Shown piece by piece: positions 2,732 to 36,550 of a stretch of DNA of 64,000 bases; within the stretch, counting starts at the first letter, position 1, and each line of letters starts with the position of its first letter. Position numbers and translations under genes: made by a program. The DNA is from a virus. The notes under the pieces were generated by a model that had not been told where the DNA came from, did no database searches, and saw nothing but the letters and a program-made list of their open reading frames with translations. The stretch lies in IMG/VR virus record IMGVR_UViG_3300032308_002010, positions 64,001 to 128,000 of that record; one strand, given 5' to 3'.

Positions 2732-5137
2732 TTATGCGTTAGCGATAGCGCCAAGATCAATATCCTGCGCGGCTTCTTCGGGATACGGCTCGATGGTCTT
2801 TTGCTTGAGGAACAAGATCACGTCGCCGAGCATTTCAAACGCGTTGCGCAGCGAGTCTTCTAGTTCCGGCATGTCAGACTTGCCGTAACGTTCGGCAAAC
2901 CGGTCACCGTGCCAGTAGAACATGAATAGAATGCGGCCAAGCTTATCGAGACCCTTAGTGAGTTCGCCCATATACCTGTCGACGAGCGAGTCGTCGCGAA
3001 CGGCGCGCAACATGGCGCCGACCATGGCGGTGTCGAACACTTCGCGCTGGCCGCTCTGGGCGGCGTCGATGACAGAGCGAACGTCGCGCTGGTCGAGCAT
3101 CGTATTCGGGTTATAGACGCTGCGGTCGGTTTGGCTGGCGCTCATCCCCGGTACCTGCACGGCAGTATCGATACCGAGCTGCGTCGGAACGCTCGTGCCC
3201 ATGATGCTTTCGCCACCCATAACCGGGCCCGGATCTGTGGGCGCGGAAGGCGCGCCGTTAATCATCATTGGCGCGCCGTACGGATCGGCGTACTTGACGC
3301 GGCACTCAAACTTACGCTTGGCGGCTGCTTGCTTTAGGATTTCACGGGCAGCGTGCTCACGAAGGCCGTGGTGTTCTACCAGCGTAACAAGCGCTTTAAC
3401 GGGGCTCAGATTAGCTTCTTTGTTAATTGTTACCGACGAACCGTTGTGGTAAACAGTTAGCGCGGCAGTCTTCTGCAGCAGCGCCAGCTGGGCGTCTACA
3501 AGATTGCCGGGCATCAGAGCCGGCGGGTCGCTAGCGCCACAACCGCAGGCGCTTTGATCTTCTGCGTTTTCGGCGTCGTCTTCGCCCTTGGTGACTTTGA
3601 GCAGCTTGAATCCTTCCGGCACGTAAATGTCGCCCATGCTCGCGCGCAGGCTGGCGCCCTTCTTGCCGTTAAGATGCAAACGTACGCCGTCGCGGTACTT
3701 GTCGTAGTTCAGCGGGTCCGTGTAGCAGCAAGCGCCGATTGAACCCTTGGGCGGGTACTTTGAGTGGTCCTCAAGATGCACTTCGTAAACAGTGCTACCG
3801 TTGCTGTCGCCGTACTCTTTAATCACGCGAAACGGCGCTGTCGTATCGCCGCGCTTGCTGAGCGCGATGTATCGAGCATCTTTGCCCGATACGCTGTTGG
3901 CGTCAGGCAGGCCATCAAACCACTTGTCAAACTCTTCGCCTTCAATGCGGGCAAGAGCAAAGACTTGGTCGGCGCGGGTGTTGAGCCAGTTACGCGCACC
4001 CTCGACGCGCACTACCGTAATGAAGTTTTCACGCTTGGCTGCGCCTTGCGGATGTACAGCTACGTAGCAACGTTCAATGTTGCCCGGCTTGACTAGAATC
4101 TCGTACAAGCCACTTTCGGTCGGGTTAAACAGCTTTTTCTCGACCTGAATGTGGTACGGAATCGATACGTTATCTCGGTCGCGCTCGTCTTGGATCAGCA
4201 CTCCATCGCGCAGCAGCTTTTCCTGATCTTCTTCGCTGTGGCCGACTGGTGCCTTGGTCTGAATCGTAACGTCATATGTGATAACGGTTAGACCCTTAAC
4301 AGACGCCGGTTCTTTAGGCGCCTCAGACAAGACGCTGGCGATCTTAGTACTGGCCGCAACTTCACGTGCCGCAGCATCCGCAATGGCCTGCTTCACGATA
4401 TCTAAACCGTGAAACTCCTCAATTGCGGCAGCCATTTGCGGCGCGTGTTTGCAGGTGTTAATAAGAGTGCCGATCATTTCTCGGCCGGCCTGCTTCAGAA
4501 ACGACTGCAGATTTAACGCGTCGCCCATTTCTTTGAGCGCCTGCGCGGTATTTAACGTAGCGCTCTTGGCGAGAGCCGGCATTGCGGCCGTCATCATTTC
4601 CTTGAGCGTGGGCTGCGCCGAACCAAACTTGGCCGGGCTGCGCGAAAGCTGTGTGAAGTCGGGCTGGCGCTGGCCGAGACCCGAAAGATTCCGCTCGACG
4701 CCGCTGCCCAGAATGTTGGGCTTACGATTAACGAGATAGTTAATCCAGTTTTCCTTGAGCGGCACGAACATGTCCTGATTCTTGATATACAGGAGTTCGT
4801 GGCCCTTGAGGTCGCCGTTGAGGAAGAACACCGGCGCATACAGCCAGTTTGAGCCGACCTTGAACGCAAAGACGCCGACCGCCTTGGTGTTTTCGCGGTT
4901 ACGGTCAAGGAGCTGGAAACCGATTTCGTGGTCGAGTAGCTTCGGGGCTGAGTCGCGCAGATAGGCGTGGGCCAGATTGCTAAACGACTGCTCGAAGGAG
5001 GTGTCGTCGCCCTTGCCGCCTAAATCGGCGTATTTGGTCTGGGTGCGGTCATACGACTGCATCACCTTCAGCCAATGCTTAACAGACGACTCTTTCGCTT
5101 TTTTGTTATACACGGCCAGCCTCCATGCTGCGCTCAA
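2732..5137 (-). CDS. Large hypothetical protein, probable virion core protein with K-x-A motifs
   Basis: 801-aa ORF directly downstream of the RNAP genes. Internal TKYAD, AKSAT, TKIAS, QKTAA and VKYAD motifs. Confidence 0.7.
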   Translation of the reverse strand: MSAAWRLAVYNKKAKESSVKHWLKVMQSYDRTQTKYADLGGKGDDTSFEQSFSNLAHAYLRDSAPKLLDHEIGFQLLDRNRENTKAVGVFAFKVGSNWLYAPVFFLNGDLKGHELLYIKNQDMFVPLKENWINYLVNRKPNILGSGVERNLSGLGQRQPDFTQLSRSPAKFGSAQPTLKEMMTAAMPALAKSATLNTAQALKEMGDALNLQSFLKQAGREMIGTLINTCKHAPQMAAAIEEFHGLDIVKQAIADAAAREVAASTKIASVLSEAPKEPASVKGLTVITYDVTIQTKAPVGHSEEDQEKLLRDGVLIQDERDRDNVSIPYHIQVEKKLFNPTESGLYEILVKPGNIERCYVAVHPQGAAKRENFITVVRVEGARNWLNTRADQVFALARIEGEEFDKWFDGLPDANSVSGKDARYIALSKRGDTTAPFRVIKEYGDSNGSTVYEVHLEDHSKYPPKGSIGACCYTDPLNYDKYRDGVRLHLNGKKGASLRASMGDIYVPEGFKLLKVTKGEDDAENAEDQSACGCGASDPPALMPGNLVDAQLALLQKTAALTVYHNGSSVTINKEANLSPVKALVTLVEHHGLREHAAREILKQAAAKRKFECRVKYADPYGAPMMINGAPSAPTDPGPVMGGESIMGTSVPTQLGIDTAVQVPGMSASQTDRSVYNPNTMLDQRDVRSVIDAAQSGQREVFDTAMVGAMLRAVRDDSLVDRYMGELTKGLDKLGRILFMFYWHGDRFAERYGKSDMPELEDSLRNAFEMLGDVILFLKQKTIEPYPEEAAQDIDLGAIANA

Positions 5138-5194
5138 AATTAGACACAGTATTAATTTACTGCGTCGAAGTCTCTATATCCTACAAAAACGGGC

Positions 5195-7075
5195 TCACGG
5201 CTTCCACCCGCTTGTTGTGCCTGTTACGCCAAACTGCTCGCCCTGCGCTAATGCCGGCACATAACTGCTTCCCGCGGTATCGCTACTTAGCCCGCGCTGG
5301 ACGCTATTCATAAGTCCTTTTTCCTGATACGAACCCAACATGCGGGTCATCCAGTCCGGGTCGTTTGAGATATTCGCCATGCCGCGCACCATTTCAGGCT
5401 GGAACGGCGGCGGCTCTTTATGGGCTTGAATCGTTTTTACGCCGTATTTATTCAAATTGCTCAGCACGTTTTTACCGATCTTTGTGCCAATTGAATAGTG
5501 CAATACCGGTTTTTCAAGATAATGCCCGGTTAATGTGTTAGGCGCGGCAGAAACGCTGCCTTCGCGCGGCGTCCAATTACGCTCAATAGTTGAATACGGC
5601 ACAACGTCGTCGGGTACGTAATCGCCGTACTCGTCATTTAATCGAACGTGATTGACAAGACCGCGCGCCAGTAGCTCGATGTTGCGCCTGTGGGCTGTAA
5701 TACCGCTGTTACCCATGACCTGCCGCATTGCTTGTACAAAATAACGCCGGCCCTCGCCTACGCCTTTGTGCCGAACAATTTCTGCTGGATTTGGCATACC
5801 CTCTGATATAACGTCTCCAGCTTCAAGCTCATCGCCTTTTTTAACCGACAAATTTCTCTCTGTCGGCACGTAGTGGTCCTGACCGTTGATCTGCACATAG
5901 TGCCCGCCCTGCGGAGCCGGGCGAACTTCTTGTACCCGGCCGTCGAGCTGCGCGTGCACGGCGCCATCTGGATATTTCTTCGGGACCTGTACAAGCGCGT
6001 TGAGCGCTTTAAAACCCGAAATTGCACCTGCGCCGCCAACACCGCCAGAGTGCTTTGAGCTAATCTGGCTTTGCGTGACAGGTTCCGACAGCGCTTGTGC
6101 CGCGGTAATACCCACATAATCTCCAATAGGCGGCAAACGGCCTTTTTCCCTATAGCCAACGTCTTTTGCATAAACTCCGCCGTCTCCGGGCCCGCCAACA
6201 ATAGGACTGCGAACTAAGATATCTTTAGCGCCGCTCTCTTTCAGATCACGCAAGATCTTTGGCGTCAGCAGCGTATTGCGTTTGTACGGCCCAACCGCGC
6301 GCGCCAGCATTGCGCCCTCATTGTCTGGGTCGTCTACGTCTGTGGGATACCCGCGCTCTTCGGCCATTGCGCGGCGCTCTTCGTCGGTGTCGTCATCGTC
6401 GTCTGCCGTAACGAGCAGGCGGTGTGTCATCTGCGCCAACTGCTTACCGTAGAAGCCGGCATCGGCGGTAGCTGTCTTCAAGTCGATTACGCCCTTGCGG
6501 GTACCGAATGCGCCGGCAAAGTATTCAACGGGGCGTAAGCCTTGGCTATACCCGCGCAGCACAGGAATTGGAATCGGGTCGCCGCGGTGATCAAGGTACT
6601 GCATGTCAGCGCCGAGGATCGAGTTTAGCTGAAACTTATTGCCGACGCCTGCGCCCGCGATTTGATGCACCAGTGGATTGTCTTGACCTTCCGCTTCTTT
6701 GTACACCTTATCCAGCAGTTCTTGCTGTGCCGCCTGCGCGAGCTCAAGTAACTTGATGTTGCGCTGTTTTTCGTCCATCCGGCGGTCGTCAAAGATATCG
6801 CGCATTTGGTTTTGTACGCGCAATTGAACGTTGCGGGCGGCGAGCGTTGGCCGAATGTCTTTAAGCCCGAACGATAGCCCGTTTGTCGTATAGCCCGCGT
6901 CACGCCCAATGTCGTGAAGGCGCTTCATGACCTCGCGATATTTTTCTGGGTGTTTTTTCGCTAATTCGGTCGCAACGCCGGACATCGTCTTCTTGTTAAG
7001 CACGCGGTCGTAGTCGCGCATTTCGGGCGGCAACGCTTCATTAATCAGAAGTTGTCCAAGCGTTGTCTTCAACAT
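5195..7075 (-). CDS. rpoC: RNA polymerase beta' subunit, C-terminal half (RpoC2-like)
   Basis: Starts 'TTLGQLLINE'. Bridge helix 'GLRPVEYFAGAFGTRKGVIDLKTATADAGFYGKQL'; trigger loop 'GITAAQALSEPVTQSQISSKHSGG'. Confidence 0.93.
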   Translation of the reverse strand: MLKTTLGQLLINEALPPEMRDYDRVLNKKTMSGVATELAKKHPEKYREVMKRLHDIGRDAGYTTNGLSFGLKDIRPTLAARNVQLRVQNQMRDIFDDRRMDEKQRNIKLLELAQAAQQELLDKVYKEAEGQDNPLVHQIAGAGVGNKFQLNSILGADMQYLDHRGDPIPIPVLRGYSQGLRPVEYFAGAFGTRKGVIDLKTATADAGFYGKQLAQMTHRLLVTADDDDDTDEERRAMAEERGYPTDVDDPDNEGAMLARAVGPYKRNTLLTPKILRDLKESGAKDILVRSPIVGGPGDGGVYAKDVGYREKGRLPPIGDYVGITAAQALSEPVTQSQISSKHSGGVGGAGAISGFKALNALVQVPKKYPDGAVHAQLDGRVQEVRPAPQGGHYVQINGQDHYVPTERNLSVKKGDELEAGDVISEGMPNPAEIVRHKGVGEGRRYFVQAMRQVMGNSGITAHRRNIELLARGLVNHVRLNDEYGDYVPDDVVPYSTIERNWTPREGSVSAAPNTLTGHYLEKPVLHYSIGTKIGKNVLSNLNKYGVKTIQAHKEPPPFQPEMVRGMANISNDPDWMTRMLGSYQEKGLMNSVQRGLSSDTAGSSYVPALAQGEQFGVTGTTSGWKP

Positions 7076-7076
7076 G

Positions 7077-7316
7077 TCACGGCGTCCAAACTATGTTTTG
7101 CAACGACTTGGGCTGAAAGTCAGTTACAACAACTGTTTTATTGATACCTAGCGCCCGTAACATAGGATGAAAATCTTTTTCACCCACTGTCGAATACACA
7201 ACGGCTTCGTCGACCTGAATGGCGACAAATAACGGATTGCCTAGATCGTCTTCGACAACGACGCTGTGGGCTTTCTGTTCAGCGGGTTGAAGGCCGTGCT
7301 GCGTTTTAACCAGCAT
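7077..7316 (-). CDS. Small hypothetical protein between RNAP genes
   Basis: 79-aa ORF whose stop abuts the rpoC-C start and whose start overlaps the previous gene. Confidence 0.6.
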   Translation of the reverse strand: MLVKTQHGLQPAEQKAHSVVVEDDLGNPLFVAIQVDEAVVYSTVGEKDFHPMLRALGINKTVVVTDFQPKSLQNIVWTP

Positions 7317-8031
7317 TGTCCGCGATACTCCGAATCATGGCGGCGATAGCATTTGCTTTAATCTGCATTGCCGTAGGCGCGTTCGGATTCGCGTAGCTGG
7401 GGCCAAACGGCCGACCAATCGAAGACGCCGACTTCTCGGCGCGGTCCCACCAAGCAGCCTTAGCGGGGTCGCCTTCCGGGGGTGCTGCGTTCGGCGGCAT
7501 CGGGCCGCCCGGCGGTAGCGGACCGCCCGGGGGTTGCATACCAGCTTGCGCGTTCGGGTCTTGCGGCGGCGGGGCCATAGGGCCGCCGGGAAGCGCTGTT
7601 TCGGCCGGCGGGGCACCGGTCGTTCCGGGCGGAAGCACAAGAGACTCTGGCGGGACTTGCACGCCCATCGCGTTCATGATTGCGGTGAGCTGCTGCTGCA
7701 TGTTGTACAGTCTGTAGTCGAGCATTTGCATCATCTGCTCAGGTTTAAGCTTTTGCTGCGCGCCAGCTGGGGCTGCACCCGGGGCAGCGGGAGCGGCGGG
7801 CGCTGCAGGAGGAGCAGCTGGCGGCGCCATTCCCATGGCCGCAGGATCAGCCGGCGGCGCGGCGGCTGCAGCAACAGCAGACGGATCAGCCGGCGGGACG
7901 GCCCCCATGGCGGCGGGATCAACCGGCGCGGCACCGGCGGCAGCGGGATCCACTGCCGCTCCGGGCACTAATGCGGATTTTTCAAAGCGCGCCTTCGCCA
8001 GCGCAATGAGTTCGGGGTTTACCGTGAACAT
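7306..8031 (-). CDS. Pro/Ala-rich disordered protein with EKSA motifs
   Basis: 241 aa, low complexity; FEKSA and AEKSA motifs; GGAGG SD upstream. Confidence 0.7.
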   Translation of the reverse strand: MFTVNPELIALAKARFEKSALVPGAAVDPAAAGAAPVDPAAMGAVPPADPSAVAAAAAPPADPAAMGMAPPAAPPAAPAAPAAPGAAPAGAQQKLKPEQMMQMLDYRLYNMQQQLTAIMNAMGVQVPPESLVLPPGTTGAPPAETALPGGPMAPPPQDPNAQAGMQPPGGPLPPGGPMPPNAAPPEGDPAKAAWWDRAEKSASSIGRPFGPSYANPNAPTAMQIKANAIAAMIRSIADNAG

Positions 8032-8052
8032 ACAACCTCCATGTTTAACGAT

Positions 8053-11000
8053 TTACGTATTATCTTCCACAATATGCACTGGGGTGTCCACCTCTATTTC
8101 GCCGCGCCGGTACGCCTGTACGGCATCCTGTTTGCTACGAAATACGCGTGGTTTGGACTTCTTACTAATCCGACTAGACGCCAAGTATAGGCCAGTTTGA
8201 TAGTCTTTGTTAGGCACATAGTGCGCTTTGAAAGTCGACGCTGCAAACAAGTTCTTGCTCGGCAACATCTTTTCTACAGCTTCTTTTGCCGCATCTTCTG
8301 TGCTCGGGACGTGATACTGCATTGCGTCGCCGTCAAAATCGGCGCCAAACCCCTTTGTAATAACGGGGTTTACTTCCATGACTTTGTTCTTAGTTAACTT
8401 GGGGTAGAACGCCATCATGCCGTAACGGTGGAGCACCGGCGCGCGATTAATAACAATTGGACGCGAGGACATCTGCCGGTCTAACTCCGCCCCGGCTTCT
8501 TTGTTCTTGTCCTCGACAGCCTGTAGCGCCTGCATACGCGGTAGACCGCGGCGCACAAGACCCCGCACCACGAATGGCTTGTAAATATCCCACGCTTTCT
8601 CTTCCGGCAGCGCAACCTCGTCCATGTCCAAATCGGGGTTGGGTGTAATGACTGCGCGGCCAACAAGGTCGACTGTCGAGCTGAGCAGTTTGCGCTGGAC
8701 TGTGCCGTACTTGGGCGAGTTACCAAACACATGCCGCAGGAAACCCTTAACGTTGCGCTCGACGTTCTTGGGCTGCTGCGGTTCGCCAAGGCCGCTCACG
8801 GCTTTCATAGAGTCATAGACGCTCAGCCGCTCATCACCGTAATCAGCCAACGTGCCCGACGCTTCTTTCAGCGTGTCATTCGCGTCGAGTAGTTCTTTGT
8901 ACAAATAGTTAGCGTCAGCCACGAGCGGCAGTTTTTTACTGCCCATTGTGCTCACTGGGCGGAAGAGCGGCGGCAAGACGGGAACTTTATTGATCATCCA
9001 GTCTTTGGGGTGCACACCAGTTGTCTCGGCGCTTTTCAAAAAGCCAAGCCGGCGGACAGCAGCATCGCGTAGTGTTTTGCGGCCGGATTTAATATCTAAA
9101 CGCGCCTGCTCAATTGCCTTCGGTAAATTAATACGTTCTAGTGCGGCCTTAATCGCAACGGGTCCGGTTTTGTCGCCCAGCTGCTCACGCCCGGCTAGCA
9201 CGCTGCGGAACTGCTTTTCAGTCATGCCCAGCACGCGCCGAATTGGGTCTTCCATAACTGGGTTAGGAAGCGGCTCGTGCAGCGTAATCTTGCTCCATCG
9301 GTTACCGCCGTGACCGCCAGTCAACGTTTCATCGAAGAGGCCGCCCGCGATTGGCTTGAGCCGGCCCTTCCAGTCAACCGTCTCGGAACTCTTTAACTCA
9401 CGGGCGCCTGCTAGCTCGTCGACGTCTTTGTCGGTCATAGCCATCAGATTTGAGCGCGTACCCTTACGCACGACGTTAATACCAGACGCCTTGAGCTGCG
9501 TGACGAACTTCTCGTAGACATGGGGCACCTTGGGAAGCGGCGGAGTGTAGCCGGCCATGAACTGCGACCAATACTCTGGGTTCGCTTGTCCGCGCACCAT
9601 CTTGGCGTCGCGAATAACTTTACCGGCACCGTGAGAAAGTAACGCGCCAAGGTCGAGCATGCCGACGCGCTTGGCGCCTTCGCTGCCGCCTTTAGCCGGC
9701 GTGCCCTCAGCGGTGTACGCGCCCATCGACCGGCCCTGCGCTTTTGACTCGCTGGTGTGGTGCAACTTCATGAAAAACCGGCTACCAGTCAGTACGCCGC
9801 CGATTTTACGTCCTGTTTCAGGATCGATGACGTCTTCGGTATCTGACAACCCGTGCTTTGAGAGTTCTTTTTGCGCAAACTCAATCAGGTCTGTTTTGTT
9901 ATCAAAGTCTTTAAGCTTGTACGACGAACCGGTTTTAGCTGCGACCTTGCCTAGCGCGGCTTCGATAACCTGCGCGGGGTTAATACGGCTGATCAGGCCC
10001 AGCGGCGAGACGAGAACTTCAAAAGGATTGCCATCGCGGTCTTTGGGCATCTGGTCGTCCGGGACAATCTCAGCCACGACACCCTTGTCGCCAAAGCGCC
10101 CGGTGAGCTTGTCGCCAACGTCCATTGGCGCTTGGTTCTTCACCACAACGCTTACGCCTTTTTTGGTGTGCATAACGTCGGTCACAATACCCGGGGCGTG
10201 ATGCTCCCACGTGATTGTGTCGTTCGTGAAGTTGCCGGCACGACCACGATGCACTTTGCCGTACACGCTGTCTTTCTTCTTAGCCACGAGCACAAGCGGA
10301 TCGCCAAATTTAACTGCGGTGCCTTTTTTAATAGCGCCGTCGTCGTCAAAGTTGTCGAGATACTTTTTGTCGTACTCGGTCGGGAACAAACTCACGAACG
10401 CCTTCTTGCCAACGTGAGTGTTGTCGTCCCACTCGGCTTCGTGCTGATACATATGCTCAGACGTTAGCCGTTTGGATGCAGATTCAGAAATTACGACTGC
10501 GTCTTCGTAGTTCTTGCCGCGAAACGGTAGATATGCCGTACGCAGATTTAAACCGAGCGCTGCGCTACCTTTTTGATCGGTAAAGTTTGAGCGCGCAAGT
10601 AACTGCCCCGGCTCGACGGTATCGCCCGGTTTTACGAGCGGCGTTTGGTGTAAAAACGTCTTCCGGTTGTACGGCATCTCGTTGTATAAATCGATCGTCT
10701 TTTTGTTGCCGTCTTTGTCACGCAGCACTATGCCATCTGGCGTGACATCAACTACCTGCGCGCGCTCAGTGGCTCGTGTCGCCCCGAGCTTTTCGCCCAT
10801 CTCGTCTTCGTGCGACACACCCTCGTCGTCTGCCTTGGCGGATTGCAGCAGCGGCGCCTCGGCGTTTACGAGCGGAAGCGCCTGCGTAAACATACGACTA
10901 CCCATGATCACGCGATGGCCTTTGATCATGGACTTAATCGGTACCATGTTGGACAGTGTCGAGAACGTCGAGTCCATGTTTGGCAGGCTGAACTGCGCTT

Positions 11001-12456
11001 CTTTTCGCGGGACGTACTTGAGCTTGCCATTTACAAGCGCCGCAACTACGGGCAACCCATTGTCTTCTTCACCGGGAAATACCAACGGCGTATCAGCTAG
11101 TTCTTGCGGCGTCTTGTACACCTTGTCGCCGGTTTTCATATCTACAACCGGCGTATACACCTTGCCGTCTGAGCCTTTCATGGCGCCGCGGGCAAACCGC
11201 ATATCAACGCCCACTTTTCCAGACTCGGGCGTGCGCAGGTAGTCGATAAACCCAAGATGGCTGGGTTGAACTGAGCGCGACTCAGCTGGCACGGCGTCCA
11301 GTGAGCCGATGCCCCCTTCGCCCATTCGGGTCACGCGCGTTTGGTGGTCAAAGATCTCGGCCGGGTTGATTTCTTCTAGGCTCGACCCAAGTCCGCTACC
11401 AATGAGCGCGGCTGAGATCGCCTTGTCGAACACGCCGGACGGAATGTGATCGATCGACTTTTTAGCGGTGGCTTTCCAGAGCAGCTTATTAAGCGACTGA
11501 CGATCTTTAGTAAACCGCTCTGCAATAAGGTCTTCCGGGCCGACGACAGACTGGTACACCATGTTGTCGCGGTCGTCGCTCTCGGCCTCGCGGCGATTGA
11601 CGGCGATAAGTTTTTTGGTGATCGCCAGAATAGTTTCCGGCGTCATGTTTTTGTACTCAGACCCCAACGTTCGGCGTGTAACTTCTGGGTCGAGTTCCGT
11701 CTTTGCGAACTCGGCAGCTACGGCTTGAGCTTTAGCGCGCGCGTCGGCACCCGCAACTTGTTTGTTAACAAGCCGGGCGTAGATCTTGTCCATCGTGCCC
11801 GCGTCGCCCTTCTCCATGTTGACGGCGGTAATCTCGTTGCCCCATGCCTTGCGGATGTCCTGATCTGACACGCCCATGGACTTGAGCAACGGCATAAGCG
11901 GGATCTGAGCCTGCCCGATGCTGATCTTGAACACACCGGTTTTGGGGTCGAGGAAGTACCGATGCGAACGGCCTTTACCGGGCAACGTGTTTACGTGCGC
12001 CTCGATCTCGCCGTTGTCTTTCTCGCGGGTAAACACGCCGGGGCGCAAGCGCATCTGGTGGGCCAGTGTGTACTCAACACCACCGTTGACGAACGTGCCT
12101 GAGTCGGTGAGATACGGCACGTGTGCGATCGTGGCGCGGCGCTGGCCAACAGGCTGGCCGGTTTTGTTATCAGTAAGCGTCCACGTACCTTGTAGCCGCC
12201 GGGCAAGTGTCCCTCTGGAAAGGACAGCTTTCTTCTGATCTGACCTTGTAAAACGGTCAGGTCCCGAGTAACCGACATCTTGAAGCTGCAGCGTATAAAG
12301 ATCGTTCTGCAGCGGCTTAAGGCCCTGCGCGCTCGTAAGCGCCTGATTAAAAATGTTATCCCGCATCATGCCGACATCGCCAAACGTGCGCATCGTGGGC
12401 GCAACCGGCGCGGGCATCGTCGGTGATTTTAAATCAGGCAGTTCGGGGGTTGGCAT
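8053..12456 (-). CDS. rpoB: RNA polymerase beta subunit fused to N-terminal half of beta'
   Basis: Beta motifs TDSGTFV, 'NPAEIFDHQTRV', 'GDKLTGRFGDKGVV', 'KLHHTSESKAQGRS'. Then beta' motifs 'GGLFD', 'VPVLPPLFRP', 'NRAPVLHR' and the catalytic 'GADFDGD' (~8326-8346). Confidence 0.95.
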   Translation of the reverse strand: MPTPELPDLKSPTMPAPVAPTMRTFGDVGMMRDNIFNQALTSAQGLKPLQNDLYTLQLQDVGYSGPDRFTRSDQKKAVLSRGTLARRLQGTWTLTDNKTGQPVGQRRATIAHVPYLTDSGTFVNGGVEYTLAHQMRLRPGVFTREKDNGEIEAHVNTLPGKGRSHRYFLDPKTGVFKISIGQAQIPLMPLLKSMGVSDQDIRKAWGNEITAVNMEKGDAGTMDKIYARLVNKQVAGADARAKAQAVAAEFAKTELDPEVTRRTLGSEYKNMTPETILAITKKLIAVNRREAESDDRDNMVYQSVVGPEDLIAERFTKDRQSLNKLLWKATAKKSIDHIPSGVFDKAISAALIGSGLGSSLEEINPAEIFDHQTRVTRMGEGGIGSLDAVPAESRSVQPSHLGFIDYLRTPESGKVGVDMRFARGAMKGSDGKVYTPVVDMKTGDKVYKTPQELADTPLVFPGEEDNGLPVVAALVNGKLKYVPRKEAQFSLPNMDSTFSTLSNMVPIKSMIKGHRVIMGSRMFTQALPLVNAEAPLLQSAKADDEGVSHEDEMGEKLGATRATERAQVVDVTPDGIVLRDKDGNKKTIDLYNEMPYNRKTFLHQTPLVKPGDTVEPGQLLARSNFTDQKGSAALGLNLRTAYLPFRGKNYEDAVVISESASKRLTSEHMYQHEAEWDDNTHVGKKAFVSLFPTEYDKKYLDNFDDDGAIKKGTAVKFGDPLVLVAKKKDSVYGKVHRGRAGNFTNDTITWEHHAPGIVTDVMHTKKGVSVVVKNQAPMDVGDKLTGRFGDKGVVAEIVPDDQMPKDRDGNPFEVLVSPLGLISRINPAQVIEAALGKVAAKTGSSYKLKDFDNKTDLIEFAQKELSKHGLSDTEDVIDPETGRKIGGVLTGSRFFMKLHHTSESKAQGRSMGAYTAEGTPAKGGSEGAKRVGMLDLGALLSHGAGKVIRDAKMVRGQANPEYWSQFMAGYTPPLPKVPHVYEKFVTQLKASGINVVRKGTRSNLMAMTDKDVDELAGARELKSSETVDWKGRLKPIAGGLFDETLTGGHGGNRWSKITLHEPLPNPVMEDPIRRVLGMTEKQFRSVLAGREQLGDKTGPVAIKAALERINLPKAIEQARLDIKSGRKTLRDAAVRRLGFLKSAETTGVHPKDWMINKVPVLPPLFRPVSTMGSKKLPLVADANYLYKELLDANDTLKEASGTLADYGDERLSVYDSMKAVSGLGEPQQPKNVERNVKGFLRHVFGNSPKYGTVQRKLLSSTVDLVGRAVITPNPDLDMDEVALPEEKAWDIYKPFVVRGLVRRGLPRMQALQAVEDKNKEAGAELDRQMSSRPIVINRAPVLHRYGMMAFYPKLTKNKVMEVNPVITKGFGADFDGDAMQYHVPSTEDAAKEAVEKMLPSKNLFAASTFKAHYVPNKDYQTGLYLASSRISKKSKPRVFRSKQDAVQAYRRGEIEVDTPVHIVEDNT

Positions 12457-12459
12457 GGA

Positions 12460-13314
12460 TCACCCCGCCTGCGACTGCTCAACTTGCTTCTTCAGCGCGA
12501 CGATCTCTTCGGGATCGACGTACGTCGGCAGAATACCGGCGATACGCGCTTTCGACTTTGCAGCCTCTTCAACCGCTTTTGCGCGGGAACGTTCGCGGGC
12601 GCGGTCGTACATAAGCTTCGCAGCTAAACCGCCAAGGCCCAGACCCCCGGCCACATATGTACCGCCGAGCGCCGCAGGTACACGCTTGGCTGTGTCGTAC
12701 GCGCTGGTGAGCCAGTCGAGCAACGCCTTTTTCTCGGCGGCTGCTTTTTCACTCGCCGCGTCATATGCGCTATCGAGCGCTTTGGCAGAGCCGCCCGTCA
12801 GCGCGTCGTAATATTCTTTTTCAGCGGCAGCAATTTGCTCCTGCTGATCGCGTTTCTTTTTACGCTTGTGCAGCGTTTCGATTAGTTTGTAGCCGCCGAG
12901 TCCGCCCAGTGCCGCTGCGCCAAACGTCGCGCCTGTACCGAATGACGAGCGAATGACGTTTGGGTCGTACGAGTTCTGGCCTTTGTTTGTCGCGGGCGTA
13001 AACGGCCGTAAAAAGCTGAGCACCGAGTCAGGCAGCATCTTGCCGACGCCCTCGGTGACGTTGTCGTAAATGCCGGCCGCTTTTGTCTCGGTAATCTTCG
13101 GCGTTTCTTCTTCGTTTTCTTCGTACTTGGGTTTGTTTAACGCCTGCGACAATCCGCGGGCCAGATAATACAAACTAGCAGCAGTAGCGCCAGCGCCAAG
13201 CCCGCCCAAACCAGTACGCACAATACGATCGCCCCAGAAGCGCTGGTAATCTTGGGCGGTAGGTTGGCCAACAGGGGCAGCTGGTGGGACGGCATTGTTT
13301 GCGAGTTTTTCCAT
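12460..13314 (-). CDS. Glycine-zipper/membrane-segment protein with K-x-A motifs
   Basis: 284 aa. MEKLA start; three Gly-rich hydrophobic segments (e.g. GLGGLGAGATAA). Confidence 0.6.
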   Translation of the reverse strand: MEKLANNAVPPAAPVGQPTAQDYQRFWGDRIVRTGLGGLGAGATAASLYYLARGLSQALNKPKYEENEEETPKITETKAAGIYDNVTEGVGKMLPDSVLSFLRPFTPATNKGQNSYDPNVIRSSFGTGATFGAAALGGLGGYKLIETLHKRKKKRDQQEQIAAAEKEYYDALTGGSAKALDSAYDAASEKAAAEKKALLDWLTSAYDTAKRVPAALGGTYVAGGLGLGGLAAKLMYDRARERSRAKAVEEAAKSKARIAGILPTYVDPEEIVALKKQVEQSQAG

Positions 13315-19947: not shown

Positions 19948-20217
19948 TTACCGATTAAGCGCAAATAAGAATTTTACAAACACTAACAACCACGCCAAAA
20001 AACCGCTGATAGCAAAAAAAACAACAACCCCGCTGGCGCCGACAGCGCGACCCAGCTTTTCAATTGGAATGTCTTTCAGCAATCGCCACGCCTTGAGATA
20101 ATCAACGGCGGCCGGCGGACTTGTCGGCGTCGCTGGGGTCGGCGCCGGGTCTGGGTTAGTCGGCTTCTTTTTGCGCCATAAAAACGAATTCAAACTATCG
20201 AGGAGCGAGTTTGCCAT
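19948..20217 (-). CDS. Small C-terminal TM protein
   Basis: Likely start MANSLL at 20217; hydrophobic C-terminus. Confidence 0.55.
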   Translation of the reverse strand: MANSLLDSLNSFLWRKKKPTNPDPAPTPATPTSPPAAVDYLKAWRLLKDIPIEKLGRAVGASGVVVFFAISGFLAWLLVFVKFLFALNR

Positions 20218-21661
20218 TTGGTTTCCCCCAGTTTTGAATCGTGTCAAAGATATCATTGCCGTAAAGCTGCGTAGCTTTGTCAAACGTGTTCATTCGCGGT
20301 AGCGTTCCAAGCGCGGCAGCTTGCGCCATCTGATAGCGATAATTTGGATCAAGCGCTGTGCGGTAAATATGCGATTTTTGTCGCGCGGCCAGAATAAAGT
20401 CACCGCGCTGTTTGGCCTTCAACAAGTGATCAGTAACGTTTGCAAACACCGGCTTGTTGTGGTCGTAAACAAACGGCGTACGAAAATCGAGCAGGTTACG
20501 AAACTGCTGCGCGTATACGCTGCCGGTCGCCGCTTTGACCTGCGAGCTAATCACACCGCCGGGAGCATGAAACCGAAACTTTGTCGGCGCGTGTGTGATG
20601 CCTTTGTATTTTGGCTTTGGGTCATCTACGTGCCAGTCTTGCGGCGATTGCGCAATCAGTCGCCGCAGGATTTCGTGCTTGCGGTCATACTCGCGGCGAT
20701 CAGAGTGCGTTTTTGCCGCACGTAGCTCGTCGAGGATGTTGGGTTTCTTTGCCTTGGGCTGTGCTTCTGCGCCCTTCTCTATTTCTTTGATTTTTTCGTA
20801 GTACTGCGGATCTTCGGACAGGTGATCCTTGGCAATTTCTTTGGCAACTTGATCGTCTCTTGTGTGCTCGTGCTCATGTTTAGCTCCTTCGGCTAAAGCA
20901 GGTTCAGAAAAGTCCCGATCGGGTAAATTATCGCCCGCGCCACCCTGTAACAAGTCTTTTTTTACCGTGCGGGAAAGATTTTCGTCCCGGTCGGGTATAT
21001 TGCTGGCGGCTTTGAGTTCTCCCCTACTGACGGGGTTACTAAACCTATGCCCTTCGGCGCTTTCGGCAGGGGTTTCGTAACCCTTGGCTTTGCCGTTATC
21101 GAGCAGTACGCCTTTTCGGCGCGCAGCGACTGTGATGTGAAACGGATGGTCGTCGTTCTGGAGCGCCGATAAACCGTAACTCTTGCGCAGTGCTGATAGG
21201 GCCGGGCTACTTATTTGAATCGCCCAGACTTTGCTTACGCCGTCAACGTTTTTGACGTCAATCTCTTTCAGCCCGCCCAACGTGTAGCCAAACATGTGGC
21301 CGCGCTCATTGATCTTGTCGGCACCGATAGCTGCTACTTCATCGGCATTCATGACCGATATATGCGCATTAACGATGTGAGACTCGACGTTTGGGACGTT
21401 GAACACACCAGCTGTTGGAAGCTCTGCACCCGGCTCGACTAGCGCGTCAAATACGCCGCGCACAAGGGCGTTCGGTACAGATAACAAAAGCCAGCCGGAT
21501 TTGGCGAGGTAGAGGCGGCCGGCAAGGGGATAACTCGTCGCGGCTTGCTTGTTACCGCCGCGGTAAAGCCAACCGAGCGCGTTGCCGGCTGAATAGGCCG
21601 GATGCTCGCGGAAATACTGCGGGTCCCAAGCGAGCGGGTCGAGTGCTGAGAGGCTGTCCAT
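20195..21661 (-). CDS. Modular protein: 2H phosphoesterase + DUF5661-like + further modules
   Basis: Two HxS/T motifs (NAHISVM, PFHITVA); 'EHEHTRDDQVAKEIAKDHLSEDPQYYEKI' module. Modules are separated by KQAA, LKAA, EKGA and VKAA. Confidence 0.7.
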   Translation of the reverse strand: MDSLSALDPLAWDPQYFREHPAYSAGNALGWLYRGGNKQAATSYPLAGRLYLAKSGWLLLSVPNALVRGVFDALVEPGAELPTAGVFNVPNVESHIVNAHISVMNADEVAAIGADKINERGHMFGYTLGGLKEIDVKNVDGVSKVWAIQISSPALSALRKSYGLSALQNDDHPFHITVAARRKGVLLDNGKAKGYETPAESAEGHRFSNPVSRGELKAASNIPDRDENLSRTVKKDLLQGGAGDNLPDRDFSEPALAEGAKHEHEHTRDDQVAKEIAKDHLSEDPQYYEKIKEIEKGAEAQPKAKKPNILDELRAAKTHSDRREYDRKHEILRRLIAQSPQDWHVDDPKPKYKGITHAPTKFRFHAPGGVISSQVKAATGSVYAQQFRNLLDFRTPFVYDHNKPVFANVTDHLLKAKQRGDFILAARQKSHIYRTALDPNYRYQMAQAAALGTLPRMNTFDKATQLYGNDIFDTIQNWGKPNGKLAPR

Positions 21662-34288: not shown

Positions 34289-36550
34289 TTACTTACTGGA
34301 ATCGGCGGCATTGTCTTCGTCCAGAATACTCTTGCTGGGTTGTTCTTTGGCGTCTGGATATTTTAACAGCCGGCGCTTCTTCTTTGAAAGCGGGCGTTTC
34401 GGCACGTCTGGCGTGAGTTTGAGCGAACGAAACACTGCGCTGGCTTTCTCTTCTTGCGGCGCCTCTTTTGTTAATAACCGGTTGCGGCGCTTGAGATACT
34501 TTTGTAACTCCTGCTCCTGATACGCCTCCAGCATCGTTTTCACTTTGTCTGCCTTGGTGGGGGCGACTAGTTTCGCGGGGTCAATCGCCCAGTTTCGCAG
34601 CGCCCAGCCTCTGCGCGGCGTGGGCTTCGTCGAGAACGGCCCGCCATGGCGCGCTTTGAAGCTCGCCCACCGCTTGATCTGCCGCGTATCTTCGTCGGGG
34701 ATTCTGCGGCCGGAGTTATAGTTCTGGTACCACTCCAGCCAGCCCTTGGGGTCATGCTCCGTGACCCATTCTGGTTTCCATTCTCCTAAACTAGCGAGCC
34801 GCGGGCCTTCTTTTTCGTACAGCGATTTATACACACCCATGCGATGTAACTGGCCGGGTGTGAAGTCCGGCTGGAAGTCTGGTAGCTCAGCCTCCGCGTG
34901 TTTAAAAAGCGCAGGCACAACGCACACCACCTGACCCGGTTCTGCTTCGGTGGTGTGTTTGGGGTCAGAAACCGGAAAAAGTACCCCTCGTTGTGCCTGC
35001 GCAGTTTTATTATTTGCTTGCTGTTCTTGCTCTTTTTGTTTGCGATACTTGTCGCCCTCGTCTTTCAAGATCTTACGGAAGATCTCGTTGAGCTGTTCTT
35101 TTTCGGCCGTGAGGTGTTCGAGCACTTCGTCGCCGGTGCGCTCGCGCTTGTACCCCATGAGCTTACCAATCATGCTCGGGTCTTGGCTGGCGCTTAGATA
35201 TCTTTGGACTTGGACGTTCTTGAGTTCTTCAGGGAGATCTCGATGCGAGTCAAAACGTAAGCCACGACCGCGAGCTTGCTGGCTACGCGACTCATGCCAG
35301 TGCGGGTCTAAGAGCTGAATAAGACTCGTGCCCTTCGTTGACAAGCCTTCGGCGCCAGCAGGGCCAATTAAGAGCGCCCGCAGCTTACCTGTGTTGTATG
35401 CGTCCACGGCAGCTTGGCGCGCTTTTGGTGTGACGCCGCCGTGAAAGAACGCATGCGGGATCTTGGCTTTCTCTAGGCCAGCTGCATAAGGCGCCAAGCC
35501 AGAGTCAATGAAGTTTGAGTAAATGATGGCTTTCTTGCGCTTGTCTTCACCCAGTGTCTTCTGCAAATTCTGGAACGCCGTCTGTAACTTGGCGCTCTGC
35601 TGAAACGCCTTGCCCGGGTCTTTGTCGGCCCGAAACGGCTGTGTACTAAGACTTACTTGGCGCAAGCCAGTTAAGAAGCTATTTAACTTCGCTAGCTCGT
35701 CTTTACTTAACGGAAACTCTTGATCCAGCTTCCACAAGAACCCCGGCGGAATCTTCGTACGAATAGCCTTCTGAATCTTGTCCTGCGCTGGCGATAACGG
35801 CACACGCACGACTTCTTCTTTGACGTCGACGCCTTCAGGAGTCTTGCTGGGCTGATAGTCAACTTTGCCCTGCAGCAACTGGCGTAGCTCTTGCTCGTTC
35901 TTGACGACTGGCTTGACGCCGGGCTTCACGCCACGCAGCCAGCCAAACAAGCCGGGCCGCACAGTCTTATAATCTATGTAGCGCTTCTCAAACTCTTCGG
36001 GTGAGATCTGTTTATTGTTCAGCATCGATAACAAACTCGCCAAGTCCGTGGGCGAGTTTGTGATCGGCGAGCCTGTTAATAACATCAGCCGTTTAGCTTG
36101 CGCGGCGGCTTCAGCAGCGCCCGCAGAACTGGCGCTTCCCGGATTACGAAGTCTGTGCGCCTCGTCCATGATCAGCGTGCCGGGCTGCTGCTGGAACTTC
36201 TTGCCCAGCGCCAGCCCCGTGTAGCTCATGATCTCAGGGTTCGAGTTGCGCGTGAACTTCTTGATCTCTTTGTCAAAGTTGCCGCGTAAGCTCGCCGGGA
36301 CTACCACGCCATACTCTTCGCCGTCTTGCTCTTTGGCAGCTTCGGCGGCAGCGAGCGACGAGAGCGACTTGCCCGACCCTAAGCCGTGATAGACCAGCAA
36401 TCTGGGGTCAGGGCCGGCAATGCGATCGGCGATGCGTTGCTGATGCTCTTGCAGCTGGATCTCAGGCAAAAGCTCAGCGATTTTGTGCCACAGCCCAGCC
36501 GGCAACGCAGATTTTTTCATCGGCTGGTCATCGTCGAGAATGCTGTTCAT
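34289..36550 (-). CDS. SF2 helicase/ATPase (poxvirus D6/D11-like) with appended C-terminal domain
   Basis: 'LLVYHGLGSGKS', 'DEAH', 'LTGSP', 'AGAEGLSTK', 'GRGLRFDSH'; C-terminal 'DPKGWLEWY...GRR...DTRQIKRW' domain after KTA/KHA motifs. Confidence 0.85.
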   Translation of the reverse strand: MNSILDDDQPMKKSALPAGLWHKIAELLPEIQLQEHQQRIADRIAGPDPRLLVYHGLGSGKSLSSLAAAEAAKEQDGEEYGVVVPASLRGNFDKEIKKFTRNSNPEIMSYTGLALGKKFQQQPGTLIMDEAHRLRNPGSASSAGAAEAAAQAKRLMLLTGSPITNSPTDLASLLSMLNNKQISPEEFEKRYIDYKTVRPGLFGWLRGVKPGVKPVVKNEQELRQLLQGKVDYQPSKTPEGVDVKEEVVRVPLSPAQDKIQKAIRTKIPPGFLWKLDQEFPLSKDELAKLNSFLTGLRQVSLSTQPFRADKDPGKAFQQSAKLQTAFQNLQKTLGEDKRKKAIIYSNFIDSGLAPYAAGLEKAKIPHAFFHGGVTPKARQAAVDAYNTGKLRALLIGPAGAEGLSTKGTSLIQLLDPHWHESRSQQARGRGLRFDSHRDLPEELKNVQVQRYLSASQDPSMIGKLMGYKRERTGDEVLEHLTAEKEQLNEIFRKILKDEGDKYRKQKEQEQQANNKTAQAQRGVLFPVSDPKHTTEAEPGQVVCVVPALFKHAEAELPDFQPDFTPGQLHRMGVYKSLYEKEGPRLASLGEWKPEWVTEHDPKGWLEWYQNYNSGRRIPDEDTRQIKRWASFKARHGGPFSTKPTPRRGWALRNWAIDPAKLVAPTKADKVKTMLEAYQEQELQKYLKRRNRLLTKEAPQEEKASAVFRSLKLTPDVPKRPLSKKKRRLLKYPDAKEQPSKSILDEDNAADSSK

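What the first reader, a model, noticed from the sequence alone, without database searches (positions are those of the whole stretch)
5195..12456. Phage multisubunit RNA polymerase with re-cut subunits: beta fused to beta'-N, beta'-C separate
The 1467-aa ORF holds a condensed full beta, then runs with essentially no linker (junction near 9460, INVVRKG|TRSNL) into the beta' N-half including GADFDGD. Both catalytic double-psi barrels are therefore on one chain. The rest of beta' (bridge helix, trigger loop) is a separate 626-aa gene, split close to the cyanobacterial RpoC1/RpoC2 break. Cellular lineages show the fusion (Helicobacter, Wolbachia) or the split (cyanobacteria) separately; I know of none with both. 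No alpha or sigma gene is visible in the window. The position among virion-type genes suggests a packaged enzyme (inference).
Basis: partly seen in the sequence, partly recalled or inferred. Interest (0 to 1): 0.8.

Follow-up and report, generated by a model that had tools for sequence, protein, structure and literature searches.

The report
Two-chain fused-and-split phage RNA polymerase
An uncultured 194-kb phage makes its only RNA polymerase from two oddly cut chains (all of beta joined to the front of beta-prime, and the back of beta-prime separately). The layout is real and shared by hundreds of related phages, including a few cultured ones, but I found no paper that describes it.

Summary
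- **First gene:** window 8053-12456 (-) encodes a 1467-aa chain. It holds a complete, condensed beta, joined without linker at residue 999/1000 (nt 9459/9460) to the beta' N-half, which carries GADFDGD.
- **Second gene:** window 5195-7075 (-) encodes the rest of beta' (626 aa).
- **The cut:** it maps to E. coli beta' 568|569, about 6-20 residues upstream of the cyanobacterial RpoC1/RpoC2 break.

The layout is not unique. At least 150 protein clusters (50% identity), 68 IMG/VR loci, Salmonella phage Arash and Vibrio phages D69, D148 and D181 share it, and they form one clade. This scan has also flagged it in at least eight other genomes. I found no paper that describes the re-partition; the Arash paper simply calls the two proteins beta and beta'.

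Features of this genome:
- It has one RNAP set, no alpha or omega, and a sigma70-family gene outside the window.
- The enzyme has no cysteine, so it has lost both zinc sites.
- Two conserved small genes of unknown function lie between the RNAP genes.
- The operon runs into the head-gene block.

In Arash, both chains, sigma and an SNF2 helicase are abundant in virion preparations. My best reading is a sigma-dependent two-chain core that is probably packaged in the virion. I rate it a new variant of a known kind.

The parts
9460..12456 (-). Beta module of the fused gene (residues 1-999). It is condensed and lacks the E. coli lineage insertions around beta 225-343 and 938-1040.
   Evidence: Pfam Rpb2_2, Rpb2_3 and Rpb2_6. 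phmmer against E. coli beta aligns residues 102-995 to Ec 116-1337. PDB beta chains match at E 8e-67.
10075..10116 (-). Beta double-psi barrel motif GDKLTGRFGDKGVV, with the two active-site lysines K783 and K791.
   Evidence: Aligned to E. coli GDKMAGRHGNKGV and conserved across the clade.
9454..9465 (-). Fusion junction, ...RKG|TRS... (residues 999/1000). There is no linker.
   Evidence: Alignment of 24 family members shows indels of only 0-2 residues at the junction. E. coli beta ends about 5 residues after residue 995.
8053..9459 (-). Beta' N-half of the fused gene (residues 1000-1467, plus stop). It holds the clamp, clamp helices and catalytic barrel. The N-terminal zinc ribbon is deleted.
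   Evidence: Pfam Rpb1_1 and Rpb1_2. Aligns to E. coli beta' 159-544. The columns of Cys70, 72, 85 and 88 are gaps here, in Arash and in D69, but are present in phages with the standard partition.
8326..8346 (-). Catalytic motif GADFDGD (residues 1371-1377).
   Evidence: Seen directly in the sequence. Across the clade only xxDxDGD is conserved; the otherwise near-invariant N is not kept.
7306..8031 (-). Conserved 241-aa Pro/Ala-rich protein between the two RNAP genes. It has a nearly invariant central segment of about 40 residues. Function unknown.
   Evidence: Homologues sit at the same position in 35 distinct related loci, at 46-97% identity. No Pfam, PHROG, NCBIfam or Atlas lead.
7077..7316 (-). 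Conserved 79-aa protein between the RNAP genes. It overlaps the upstream gene by 11 nt and ends 1 nt before the beta'-C start. Function unknown.
   Evidence: 29-sequence alignment A1. AlphaFold model has pLDDT 87, with a five-stranded sheet plus a helix. No solved-structure match: Z at most 2.4, Foldseek E above 0.4.
5195..7075 (-). Beta' C-half gene (626 aa) with bridge helix, trigger loop and C-terminal clamp part. It has no SI3 insertion and no second zinc site.
   Evidence: Pfam Rpb1_5. rpoC profile positions 548-1048. Aligns to E. coli beta' 722-946 and 1179-1286. Cys814, 888, 895 and 898 are replaced by D, G, Y and D.
5143..5166 (-). Hairpin followed by a T-rich tail, just after the beta'-C stop codon. 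Weak terminator candidate.
   Evidence: Consensus scan. The region as a whole has no more such sites than shuffled sequence.
2732..5137 (-). Conserved 801-aa neighbour downstream of beta'-C, weakly similar to Arash structural protein gp218.
   Evidence: Present downstream of beta'-C in 66 of 68 related loci. tblastn to Arash gp218 gives E 8e-6. The fold model is poor (pLDDT 61) and finds no informative match.
12460..13314 (-). 284-aa ORF directly upstream, 3 nt from the fused gene's start. Same transcription unit by position.
   Evidence: ORF list. Homologues in 38 of 68 related loci. No family match.
34289..36550 (-). SNF2-family helicase, homologue of Arash gp217, the virion-detected partner encoded next to beta'-C in Arash. 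It is unlinked from the RNAP genes here.
   Evidence: Pfam SNF2-rel_dom and Helicase_C, PHROG 62. 34% identity to Arash gp217.

Best explanation
These two genes encode the catalytic core of the phage's only RNA polymerase, a bacterial-type multisubunit enzyme re-partitioned into two chains. Chain 1 (1467 aa) is all of beta covalently joined to the beta' N-half, so both active-site barrels and the sigma-binding clamp helices sit on one polypeptide. Chain 2 (626 aa) supplies the bridge helix, trigger loop and the rest of the cleft. All of this is shown by homology.

The following steps are inferred:
- The beta to beta' tether replaces the assembly role of the alpha dimer. Alpha and omega are absent from the genome.
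- Promoter recognition comes from the phage's own sigma70-family protein, which has regions 2-4 and is encoded 33 kb away.
- The enzyme is made late with the head proteins, packaged in the virion and delivered with the DNA, so early transcription does not depend on host RNAP.
- The complete lack of cysteine and of both zinc sites may suit a protein that has to pass the tail unfolded or cross an oxidising compartment.
- The two conserved small proteins encoded between the RNAP genes are candidate accessory or packaging factors.
For: **Domain content and clean cut:**

**Catalytic residues:** DxDGD, both barrel lysines, bridge helix and trigger-loop segments are all aligned and kept.

**Conservation of the layout:** at least 120 clusters at 76-98% identity, all 1455-1485 aa with PF00562 plus PF00623. 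The best 150 representatives at 50% clustering all span the junction. 68 loci have a separate beta'-C. The layout forms one clade on the beta'-N tree, SH-aLRT 98.

**One RNAP set, no alpha or omega:**

**Sigma:** Pfam Sigma70_r3 scores above its cut-off, and PHROG 351 matches. The protein aligns to SigA/RpoD regions 2-4 in the PDB at E 1e-5. It is 30% identical to Arash gp10 and has 437 homologues.

**Packaging:** in Arash virion mass spectrometry gp206 is the top protein, and gp216, gp217 and gp10 are all detected (PMC10585845). The operon is co-oriented with, and adjacent to, homologues of Arash gp218, gp222 and the major capsid protein. Relatives carry kinase, acylphosphatase and DUF5661 extensions on beta'-C.

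**Cysteine:** there are 0 Cys in 2693 residues of chain 1, chain 2, the two small proteins and sigma. Long ORFs of the genome average about 1.8%. 60 of 61 related beta'-C chains also have 0 Cys.
Against: - No experiment exists on this phage or its close relatives.
- The Arash virion preparation also yielded primase, ribonucleotide reductases and other non-structural proteins, so carry-over from the lysate cannot be excluded.
- In this genome the portal is about 75 kb away from the RNAP genes, unlike in Arash.
- I found no recurrent promoter motif by k-mer counting.
- The beta flap tip, which binds sigma region 4 in bacteria, is about 8 residues shorter, so sigma docking may differ.
- That the tether replaces alpha is inference only.
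- The functions of the two small proteins are unknown.
Confidence: 0.7

Rival explanations
1. The anatomy is the same, but the enzyme is not packaged. Host RNAP transcribes early genes, including these, and the phage RNAP with its sigma takes over for middle or late genes, like the non-virion RNAPs of phiKZ or AR9.
For: The Arash mass-spectrometry list contains many clearly non-structural enzymes, which suggests lysate carry-over. Here the RNAP genes are far from the portal. Phage sigma factors usually serve middle or late transcription (established knowledge).
Against: The genes sit in, and are co-oriented with, the head or structural block, the usual place for packaged proteins. In Arash, gp206 has the highest spectral count of all proteins. 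The enzyme set is cysteine-free. Relatives carry cargo-like extensions on beta'-C.
Confidence: 0.25
2. The fusion and the split are assembly or sequencing artefacts: a missed stop at the junction, or a frameshift creating the break.
For: None found.
Against: The same junction, the same chain-1 end and the same chain-2 start recur in 68 independent metagenome loci and 4 isolate genomes. Two conserved genes, or kilobases of other genes, lie between the two RNAP genes.
Confidence: 0.01
3. The two chains are rejoined after translation, for example by a split intein, to give a single beta-beta' chain.
For: Inteins are very common in these genes in relatives. Two loci look like split-intein breaks at a different site.
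Against: Chain 1 ends, and chain 2 starts, directly in RNAP sequence, with no extra residues that could form intein halves. Neither chain has a cysteine. Arash mass spectrometry reports the two as separate proteins.
Confidence: 0.02
4. It is a degenerate RNAP homologue recruited for another role, for example a structural or DNA-handling virion protein that no longer transcribes.
For: The NADFDGD asparagine is not conserved. Both zinc sites, alpha and omega are missing.
Against: The three aspartates, both lysines, the bridge helix and the trigger loop with its histidine are kept across a clade that has diverged to about 30% identity. A cognate sigma co-occurs.
Confidence: 0.02

Closest known systems
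RNAP of Salmonella phage Arash (gp206 1525 aa + gp216 606 aa, with sigma gp10 and helicase gp217; OQ632216, PMC10585845) and of Vibrio phages D69, D148 and D181
   Same: The two-chain partition, the linker-less junction and the deleted beta' zinc ribbon are the same. The co-occurring sigma-like protein and SNF2 helicase are also shared, as are TerL, portal and major capsid protein homologues. All fall in one clade on the beta'-N tree.
   Different: Identity is only 32% for chain 1 and 24% for chain 2. Arash and D69 keep the four cysteines of the second zinc site, whereas this phage has none. In Arash nine genes separate the two RNAP genes and the portal lies just upstream. Here two conserved small genes lie between them, and the portal and helicase are elsewhere. 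The Arash paper calls the proteins beta and beta' and does not mention the re-partition.
phiKZ-like and AR9 jumbo-phage multisubunit RNAPs (virion and non-virion sets; PMC7598289, PMC7824862)
   Same: They are phage-encoded, lack alpha and omega, and have beta' cut after the catalytic barrel at the cyanobacterial-type site. One set is packaged in virions.
   Different: In those phages beta is also cut into 2-3 pieces and is never fused to beta'. There are two paralogous sets and no sigma homologue. Sequences are far more divergent. Here there is one set, with beta whole and fused, and a sigma70-family factor.
mReC phages (Weinheimer & Aylward 2020, PMC7481178) and other phages with a standard partition (Rhizobium RHph_Y65, Vibrio Va2, Cobetia Carin-5)
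   Same: They are compact bacterial-type beta and beta' in Caudoviricetes, and some have a phage sigma next to them (Carin-5).
   Different: They have separate beta (about 930-1360 aa) and undivided beta' (about 900-1190 aa). Va2, RHph_Y65 and Carin-5 keep the zinc-ribbon cysteines. The mReC selection rules (two proteins of at least 800 aa, NADxDGD) would exclude this layout. Va2, RHph_Y65 and Carin-5 fall outside the fused clade on the tree.
Cyanobacterial and plastid RpoC1 (gamma) / RpoC2 split
   Same: Beta' is cut in the same surface linker after the catalytic barrel.
   Different: The phage cut is at E. coli 568|569, before the TTxGR motif. Gamma aligns to about Ec 574 and RpoC2 starts at about Ec 590-592. 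Beta is not fused in cyanobacteria, and the large SI3 insertion is absent here.
Helicobacter- and Wolbachia-type beta-beta' fusions (NCBIfam NF007172, NF011417)
   Same: The beta C-terminus is joined head-to-tail to the beta' N-terminus. The best NCBIfam hit of chain 1 is NF007172.
   Different: Those chains carry the whole beta' (about 2840-2890 positions). The score here is 345 bits against a cut-off of 5372, so this is not a member.

Membership tests
Bacterial-type multisubunit RNAP catalytic core (beta/beta') | Beta' double-psi barrel with the DxDGD aspartate triad | tested here: met
   GADFDGD at residues 1371-1377. D-x-D-G-D is invariant in 24 family members. Pfam Rpb1_2 matches at E 1e-24.
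Bacterial-type multisubunit RNAP catalytic core (beta/beta') | Beta double-psi barrel with two active-site lysines | tested here: met
   K783 and K791 lie in the motif GDKLTGRFGDKGVV, aligned to E. coli. Pfam Rpb2_6 matches at E 5e-50.
Bacterial-type multisubunit RNAP catalytic core (beta/beta') | Bridge helix and trigger loop | tested here: met
   Chain 2 aligns through both elements to the beta' of mycobacteria and E. coli. Pfam Rpb1_5 matches.
Bacterial-type multisubunit RNAP catalytic core (beta/beta') | Alpha dimer assembly platform and omega subunit | tested here: not met
   PF01000, PF01193 and PF01192 give no match at E up to 1 in the whole 194-kb record, which is 95% complete. The controls matched in 14 of 14 genomes. 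Very divergent analogues cannot be excluded.
Bacterial-type multisubunit RNAP catalytic core (beta/beta') | Two beta' zinc sites (E. coli Cys70/72/85/88 and Cys814/888/895/898) | tested here: not met
   The first site is deleted and the second is replaced by D, G, Y and D. Neither chain has any cysteine.
Arash-like fused-and-split phage RNAP (unnamed clade) | Beta and the beta' N-half in one ORF without linker, and beta'-C as a separate gene of about 600-650 aa cut before TTxGR | tested here: met
Arash-like fused-and-split phage RNAP (unnamed clade) | Groups with the other fused sequences on a tree, apart from bacteria and from phages with the standard partition | tested here: met
   On the beta'-N tree of 31 sequences the fused group is one side of a branch, SH-aLRT 98. 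This was a quick search with only 4 bacteria and 3 standard-partition phages sampled.
Arash-like fused-and-split phage RNAP (unnamed clade) | Co-occurring sigma70-family protein and SNF2 helicase in the same genome | tested here: met
   Sigma lies at G000 35593-36435 and the helicase at window 34289-36550.
Arash-like fused-and-split phage RNAP (unnamed clade) | Presence of the chains in virions | not testable with these tools
   Only the Arash mass spectrometry exists. There is nothing for this uncultured phage.
mReC (Weinheimer & Aylward 2020) | Separate beta and beta' proteins, each at least 800 aa, with NADxDGD in beta' | tested here: not met
   Here beta'-C is 626 aa, the barrel is on the beta chain, and the motif reads GADFDGD.
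mReC (Weinheimer & Aylward 2020) | T4-type major capsid protein (PF07068) | tested here: inconclusive
   There is no PF07068 match in the genome, but the search had no positive control. The capsid homologue found is the 313-aa Arash-type protein.
phiKZ/AR9-type non-canonical RNAP | Beta cut into 2-3 polypeptides; two paralogous sets; no sigma homologue | tested here: not met
   Beta is whole and fused. There is a single Rpb2_6 locus in the genome. A sigma homologue is present.
phiKZ/AR9-type non-canonical RNAP | Beta' cut after the catalytic barrel | tested here: met
   The cut is at E. coli 568|569. The phiKZ-type site is described as coinciding with the cyanobacterial one (PMC7598289). I did not align phiKZ sequences myself.

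The most novel reading that the evidence does not exclude
This is the minimal natural sigma-dependent RNA polymerase. It is a two-chain core free of alpha, omega and zinc, and a large and widespread phage clade packs it into its virions together with its own sigma factor (and perhaps the two small operon-encoded proteins as new accessory subunits). It is injected to run host-independent early transcription. That would be the first virion RNAP to use a sigma70-family factor.
Probability: 0.35. Interest if true: 0.8.

Novelty: new variant of a known kind. Interest (0 to 1): 0.6.

Why it matters
Every cellular RNAP needs the alpha (or Rpb3/11) platform. Most keep the zinc sites and a near-invariant NADFDGD motif. 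Here a very common group of phages runs a bacterial-type, apparently sigma-using enzyme without alpha, omega, zinc or cysteine, and with a relaxed catalytic motif, on just two chains.

- **Experimental system:** it offers a compact natural system for asking what the core really needs for assembly and for sigma docking. The system is cysteine-free and probably rifampicin-insensitive; the Rif-pocket substitutions were seen, and insensitivity is my inference from them.
- **Evolution:** it shows that RNAP subunit boundaries are re-drawn freely in viruses. There is one origin of this layout, plus many inteins and add-on domains.
- **Biology:** if the enzyme is packaged, these abundant environmental phages would be independent of host transcription from the first minute.
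- **Annotation:** the layout is mis-annotated as plain 'beta' and 'beta-prime' in public records, and selection rules like those of the mReC study miss it.

Tried and rejected
- **mReC membership:** rejected. The paper's supplement lists separate beta (1009-1364 aa) and beta' (903-1038 aa), and its filters exclude this layout.
- **Artefact reading:** rejected on conservation.
- **Promoter search:** counting 6-8-mers in 74 upstream regions of a crude gene set gave no recurrent motif. The sigma70 consensus scan found fewer sites than shuffled sequence.
- **The 79-aa protein:** the fold model is confident but matches no solved structure.
- **The 241-aa protein:** no family match and no Atlas lead.
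- **The 801-aa neighbour:** the model is poor (pLDDT 61), and Foldseek hits only uncharacterised phage proteins.
- **Intein check:** Pfam did not recognise intein domains in the 347-aa insertion of P0017, so I call it 'intein-like'. Intein families are on record for beta'-C relatives.
- **False fusion:** an apparent fusion of the 79-aa protein to beta'-C in L033 was a tblastn alignment running over a stop codon.
- **Fully fused single chain:** among the 120 best longer relatives of beta'-C none carries beta or beta'-N domains.
- **Arash gene content:** I compared only about 100 kb of Arash and did not fetch the rest.

Full report
**Setting.** The window is bases 64001-128000 of a 193,815-bp IMG/VR virus record that CheckV estimates as 95% complete. 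Nearly all genes lie on the minus strand.

**Observation.**
- The 1467-aa ORF (8053-12456, -) and the 626-aa ORF (5195-7075, -) exist as described.
- Pfam places Rpb2 domains 2, 3 and 6 at residues 143-915 of the long protein, and Rpb1 domains 1 and 2 at residues 1127-1395. It places Rpb1 domain 5 on the short protein.
- Against solved structures, residues 95-1021 match bacterial beta (E 8e-67) and residues 1070-1463 match beta' (E 2e-47).
- The short protein matches beta' from the TTxGR motif to the C-terminal clamp region (E 3e-36).
- E. coli beta aligns up to residue 995 of the phage chain, which corresponds to Ec 1337 of 1342. E. coli beta' 159-544 aligns to residues 1077-1456.
- The NCBIfam rpoC profile is left at position 535 by chain 1 and re-entered at position 548 by chain 2. 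Nothing substantial of beta' is missing between the chains.

**Position of the cut.**
- In a multiple alignment with four bacterial and three phage beta' proteins, the break maps to E. coli beta' 568|569, just before TTVGR at Ec 572.
- E. coli beta' aligns to the cyanobacterial gamma profile up to Ec 574, and to the RpoC2 profile from Ec 590-592.
- The phage cut therefore lies in the same linker, about 6-20 residues upstream of the cyanobacterial one. 'Close to' is correct; 'identical' would not be.
- The same kind of cut after the catalytic barrel is already described for both RNAP sets of phiKZ-like phages (PMC7598289).

**What is missing compared with bacterial RNAP.**
- The lineage insertions of E. 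coli beta (around 225-343 and 938-1040) and SI3 of beta' are absent.
- The N-terminal zinc ribbon of beta' is deleted and replaced by a short Gly-rich stretch. This holds for this phage, Arash and D69, but not for phages with the standard partition.
- The second zinc site is kept in Arash and D69, which have four cysteines each. In this phage it is replaced by D, G, Y and D.
- Chain 1, chain 2, the two small intervening proteins and the sigma-like protein contain no cysteine in 2693 residues. Long ORFs of the genome average about 1.8%.
- 60 of 61 related beta'-C chains and 15 of 21 intein-free chain-1 representatives also have none.
- Within the clade only xxDxDGD is conserved. The N of NADFDGD is G here and A in Arash.
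- The barrel lysines, bridge helix and trigger loop are kept.
- The flap tip is about 8 residues shorter than in bacteria, and several rifampicin-pocket positions are substituted. Rifampicin insensitivity is my inference from this.

**How common is it?**
- A word-indexed search found at least 120 clusters at 76-98% identity. All are 1455-1485 aa with both PF00562 and PF00623, on contigs of about 200 kb.
- An exhaustive search of 50%-identity representatives returned 150 proteins at 44-60% identity, and the list was cut at 150. All of them span the junction. Many are 1800-3350 aa long because of intein-like insertions.
- 68 IMG/VR loci hold a beta'-C relative at 44-97% identity. Wherever the locus is complete, the fused gene lies upstream and beta'-C is a separate ORF.
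- Among 50,697 deposited phage records only Salmonella phage Arash and Vibrio phages D69, D148 and D181 have this layout. The other hits are bacterial rpoBC contaminants or phages with the standard partition.
- On a beta'-N tree the 24 fused sequences form one side of a branch (SH-aLRT 98). They are apart from the bacteria (SH-aLRT 99) and from Va2, RHph_Y65 and Carin-5. Arash and D69 form the deepest branch of the fused group. This was a quick search with sparse outgroups.

**Literature.**
- The Arash paper reports gp206 ('beta') as the protein with the most spectra in virion mass spectrometry (3516). It also reports gp216 ('beta-prime', 1210), helicase gp217 (1148) and sigma gp10 (467). It does not mention the fusion or the split (PMC10585845).
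- The mReC paper concerns phages with separate beta and beta' genes, and its filters would exclude this layout (PMC7481178).
- Two reviews of phage multisubunit RNAPs, a comparative genomics paper and a 2026 jumbo-phage review do not describe it.
- Earlier notes of this scan report the same layout in at least eight other genomes, with the same closest relatives. I re-derived those points independently here.

**Genome context.**
- The genome has a single Rpb2_6 locus and no alpha or omega.
- It has one sigma70-family gene at G000 35593-36435, outside the window. Sigma70_r3 scores above its cut-off and PHROG 351 matches. The protein aligns to SigA/RpoD regions 2-4 at E 1e-5, is 30% identical to Arash gp10 and has 437 homologues.
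- Only TerL, portal, major capsid protein, two structural proteins, the two RNAP chains, sigma and the SNF2 helicase are detectably shared with the roughly 100 kb of Arash that I compared.

**The operon.**
- It is tightly packed. A 284-aa ORF ends 3 nt before the fused gene.
- After the fused gene come a 241-aa Pro/Ala-rich protein (22-nt gap) and a 79-aa protein (11-nt overlap). Beta'-C then starts 1 nt after the 79-aa gene's stop codon.
- Both small genes are conserved at this position in the subclade with at least 57% identity, and are also cysteine-poor. Their function is unknown.
- Downstream, an 801-aa protein follows beta'-C in 66 of 68 loci and weakly resembles Arash structural protein gp218.
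- Further downstream, just before the window, lie homologues of Arash gp222 and the major capsid protein.
- The RNAP genes thus run straight into the head block.

**Variation in relatives.**
- **Chain 1, TPE|S site:** intein-like insertions occur at this conserved site of beta (residue 411/412).
- **Beta'-C inteins:** these carry Hint and LAGLIDADG families.
- **Broken chain 1:** in two loci the fused gene is broken at residue about 928, with extra residues on both broken ends.
- **Beta'-C extensions:** at least 100 clusters have C-terminal extensions of 470-1500 residues. Some carry P-loop kinase, acylphosphatase or DUF5661 domains.
- **No full fusion:** none of the 120 best longer relatives is a complete single-chain beta-beta'.

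- **Interpretation:** it is partly supported. This is a real re-partitioned RNAP core and is probably packaged. It is the standard layout of a large, mostly uncultured phage clade rather than a one-off, and the genome does supply a sigma.
- **Mechanism:** shown are the homology, the conservation, the gene content and the context. Inferred are the tether replacing alpha, the use of sigma, and packaging with injection.
- **Rating:** I rate it a new variant of a known kind, with interest 0.6.

Noticed in passing
window 57744-62966 (-): A 1740-aa ORF with 241 cysteines (13.9%) in repeated Cys-rich modules. It has no Pfam or PHROG match. This is a striking contrast to the cysteine-free RNAP set, and it is possibly an extracellular fibre or adhesin.
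   Followed up: partly
P0017; L013 and L040 at 3635-9109: Relatives carry an insertion of about 347 aa exactly at the conserved TPE|S site of beta (residue 411/412 of the window protein). Many cluster representatives are 1800-3350 aa long with up to 6 matched stretches. The insertions look like inteins, but Pfam did not recognise intein domains in P0017.
   Followed up: partly
L047 2963-8335; L073 314-7158: The fused gene is broken at residue about 928 into two ORFs that lie 0.4-2.3 kb apart. About 95-115 extra residues follow the first part and 56-79 precede the second. This is reminiscent of a split intein or an invaded gene.
   Followed up: no
L050 9914-14104; L047, L068 and L073; P0395-P0514: In the subclade at 50-55% identity, beta'-C carries C-terminal extensions of 470-1500 residues. 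In L050 the extension holds acylphosphatase, P-loop kinase (AAA_18/AAA_33) and DUF5661 domains. The window's own ORF 20195-21661 has DUF5661 plus a 2H phosphoesterase domain.
   Followed up: partly
OZ196140 (Vibrio phage D181) and OZ196545 (D148), about 144.2-149.6 kb: A homing-endonuclease gene interrupts the fused RNAP gene. The match comes in two pieces and the region is annotated as four hypothetical proteins plus an endonuclease. Sister phage D69 has the gene intact.
   Followed up: no
phage collection records OR844998, OR846602, CAKLQH020000005, AFYI01000006, MT836236 and others: Records filed as phages contain ordinary bacterial rpoB-rpoC operons, flanked by ribosomal protein genes in the Acinetobacter record. 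These are contaminating host contigs that produce false 'phage RNAP' hits.
   Followed up: partly
window 7306-8031 (-): The 241-aa protein combines DPAA/GGAPP-type repeats with a central segment of about 40 residues that stays nearly invariant even at about 50% overall identity. This suggests a conserved binding helix on a flexible tether.
   Followed up: partly
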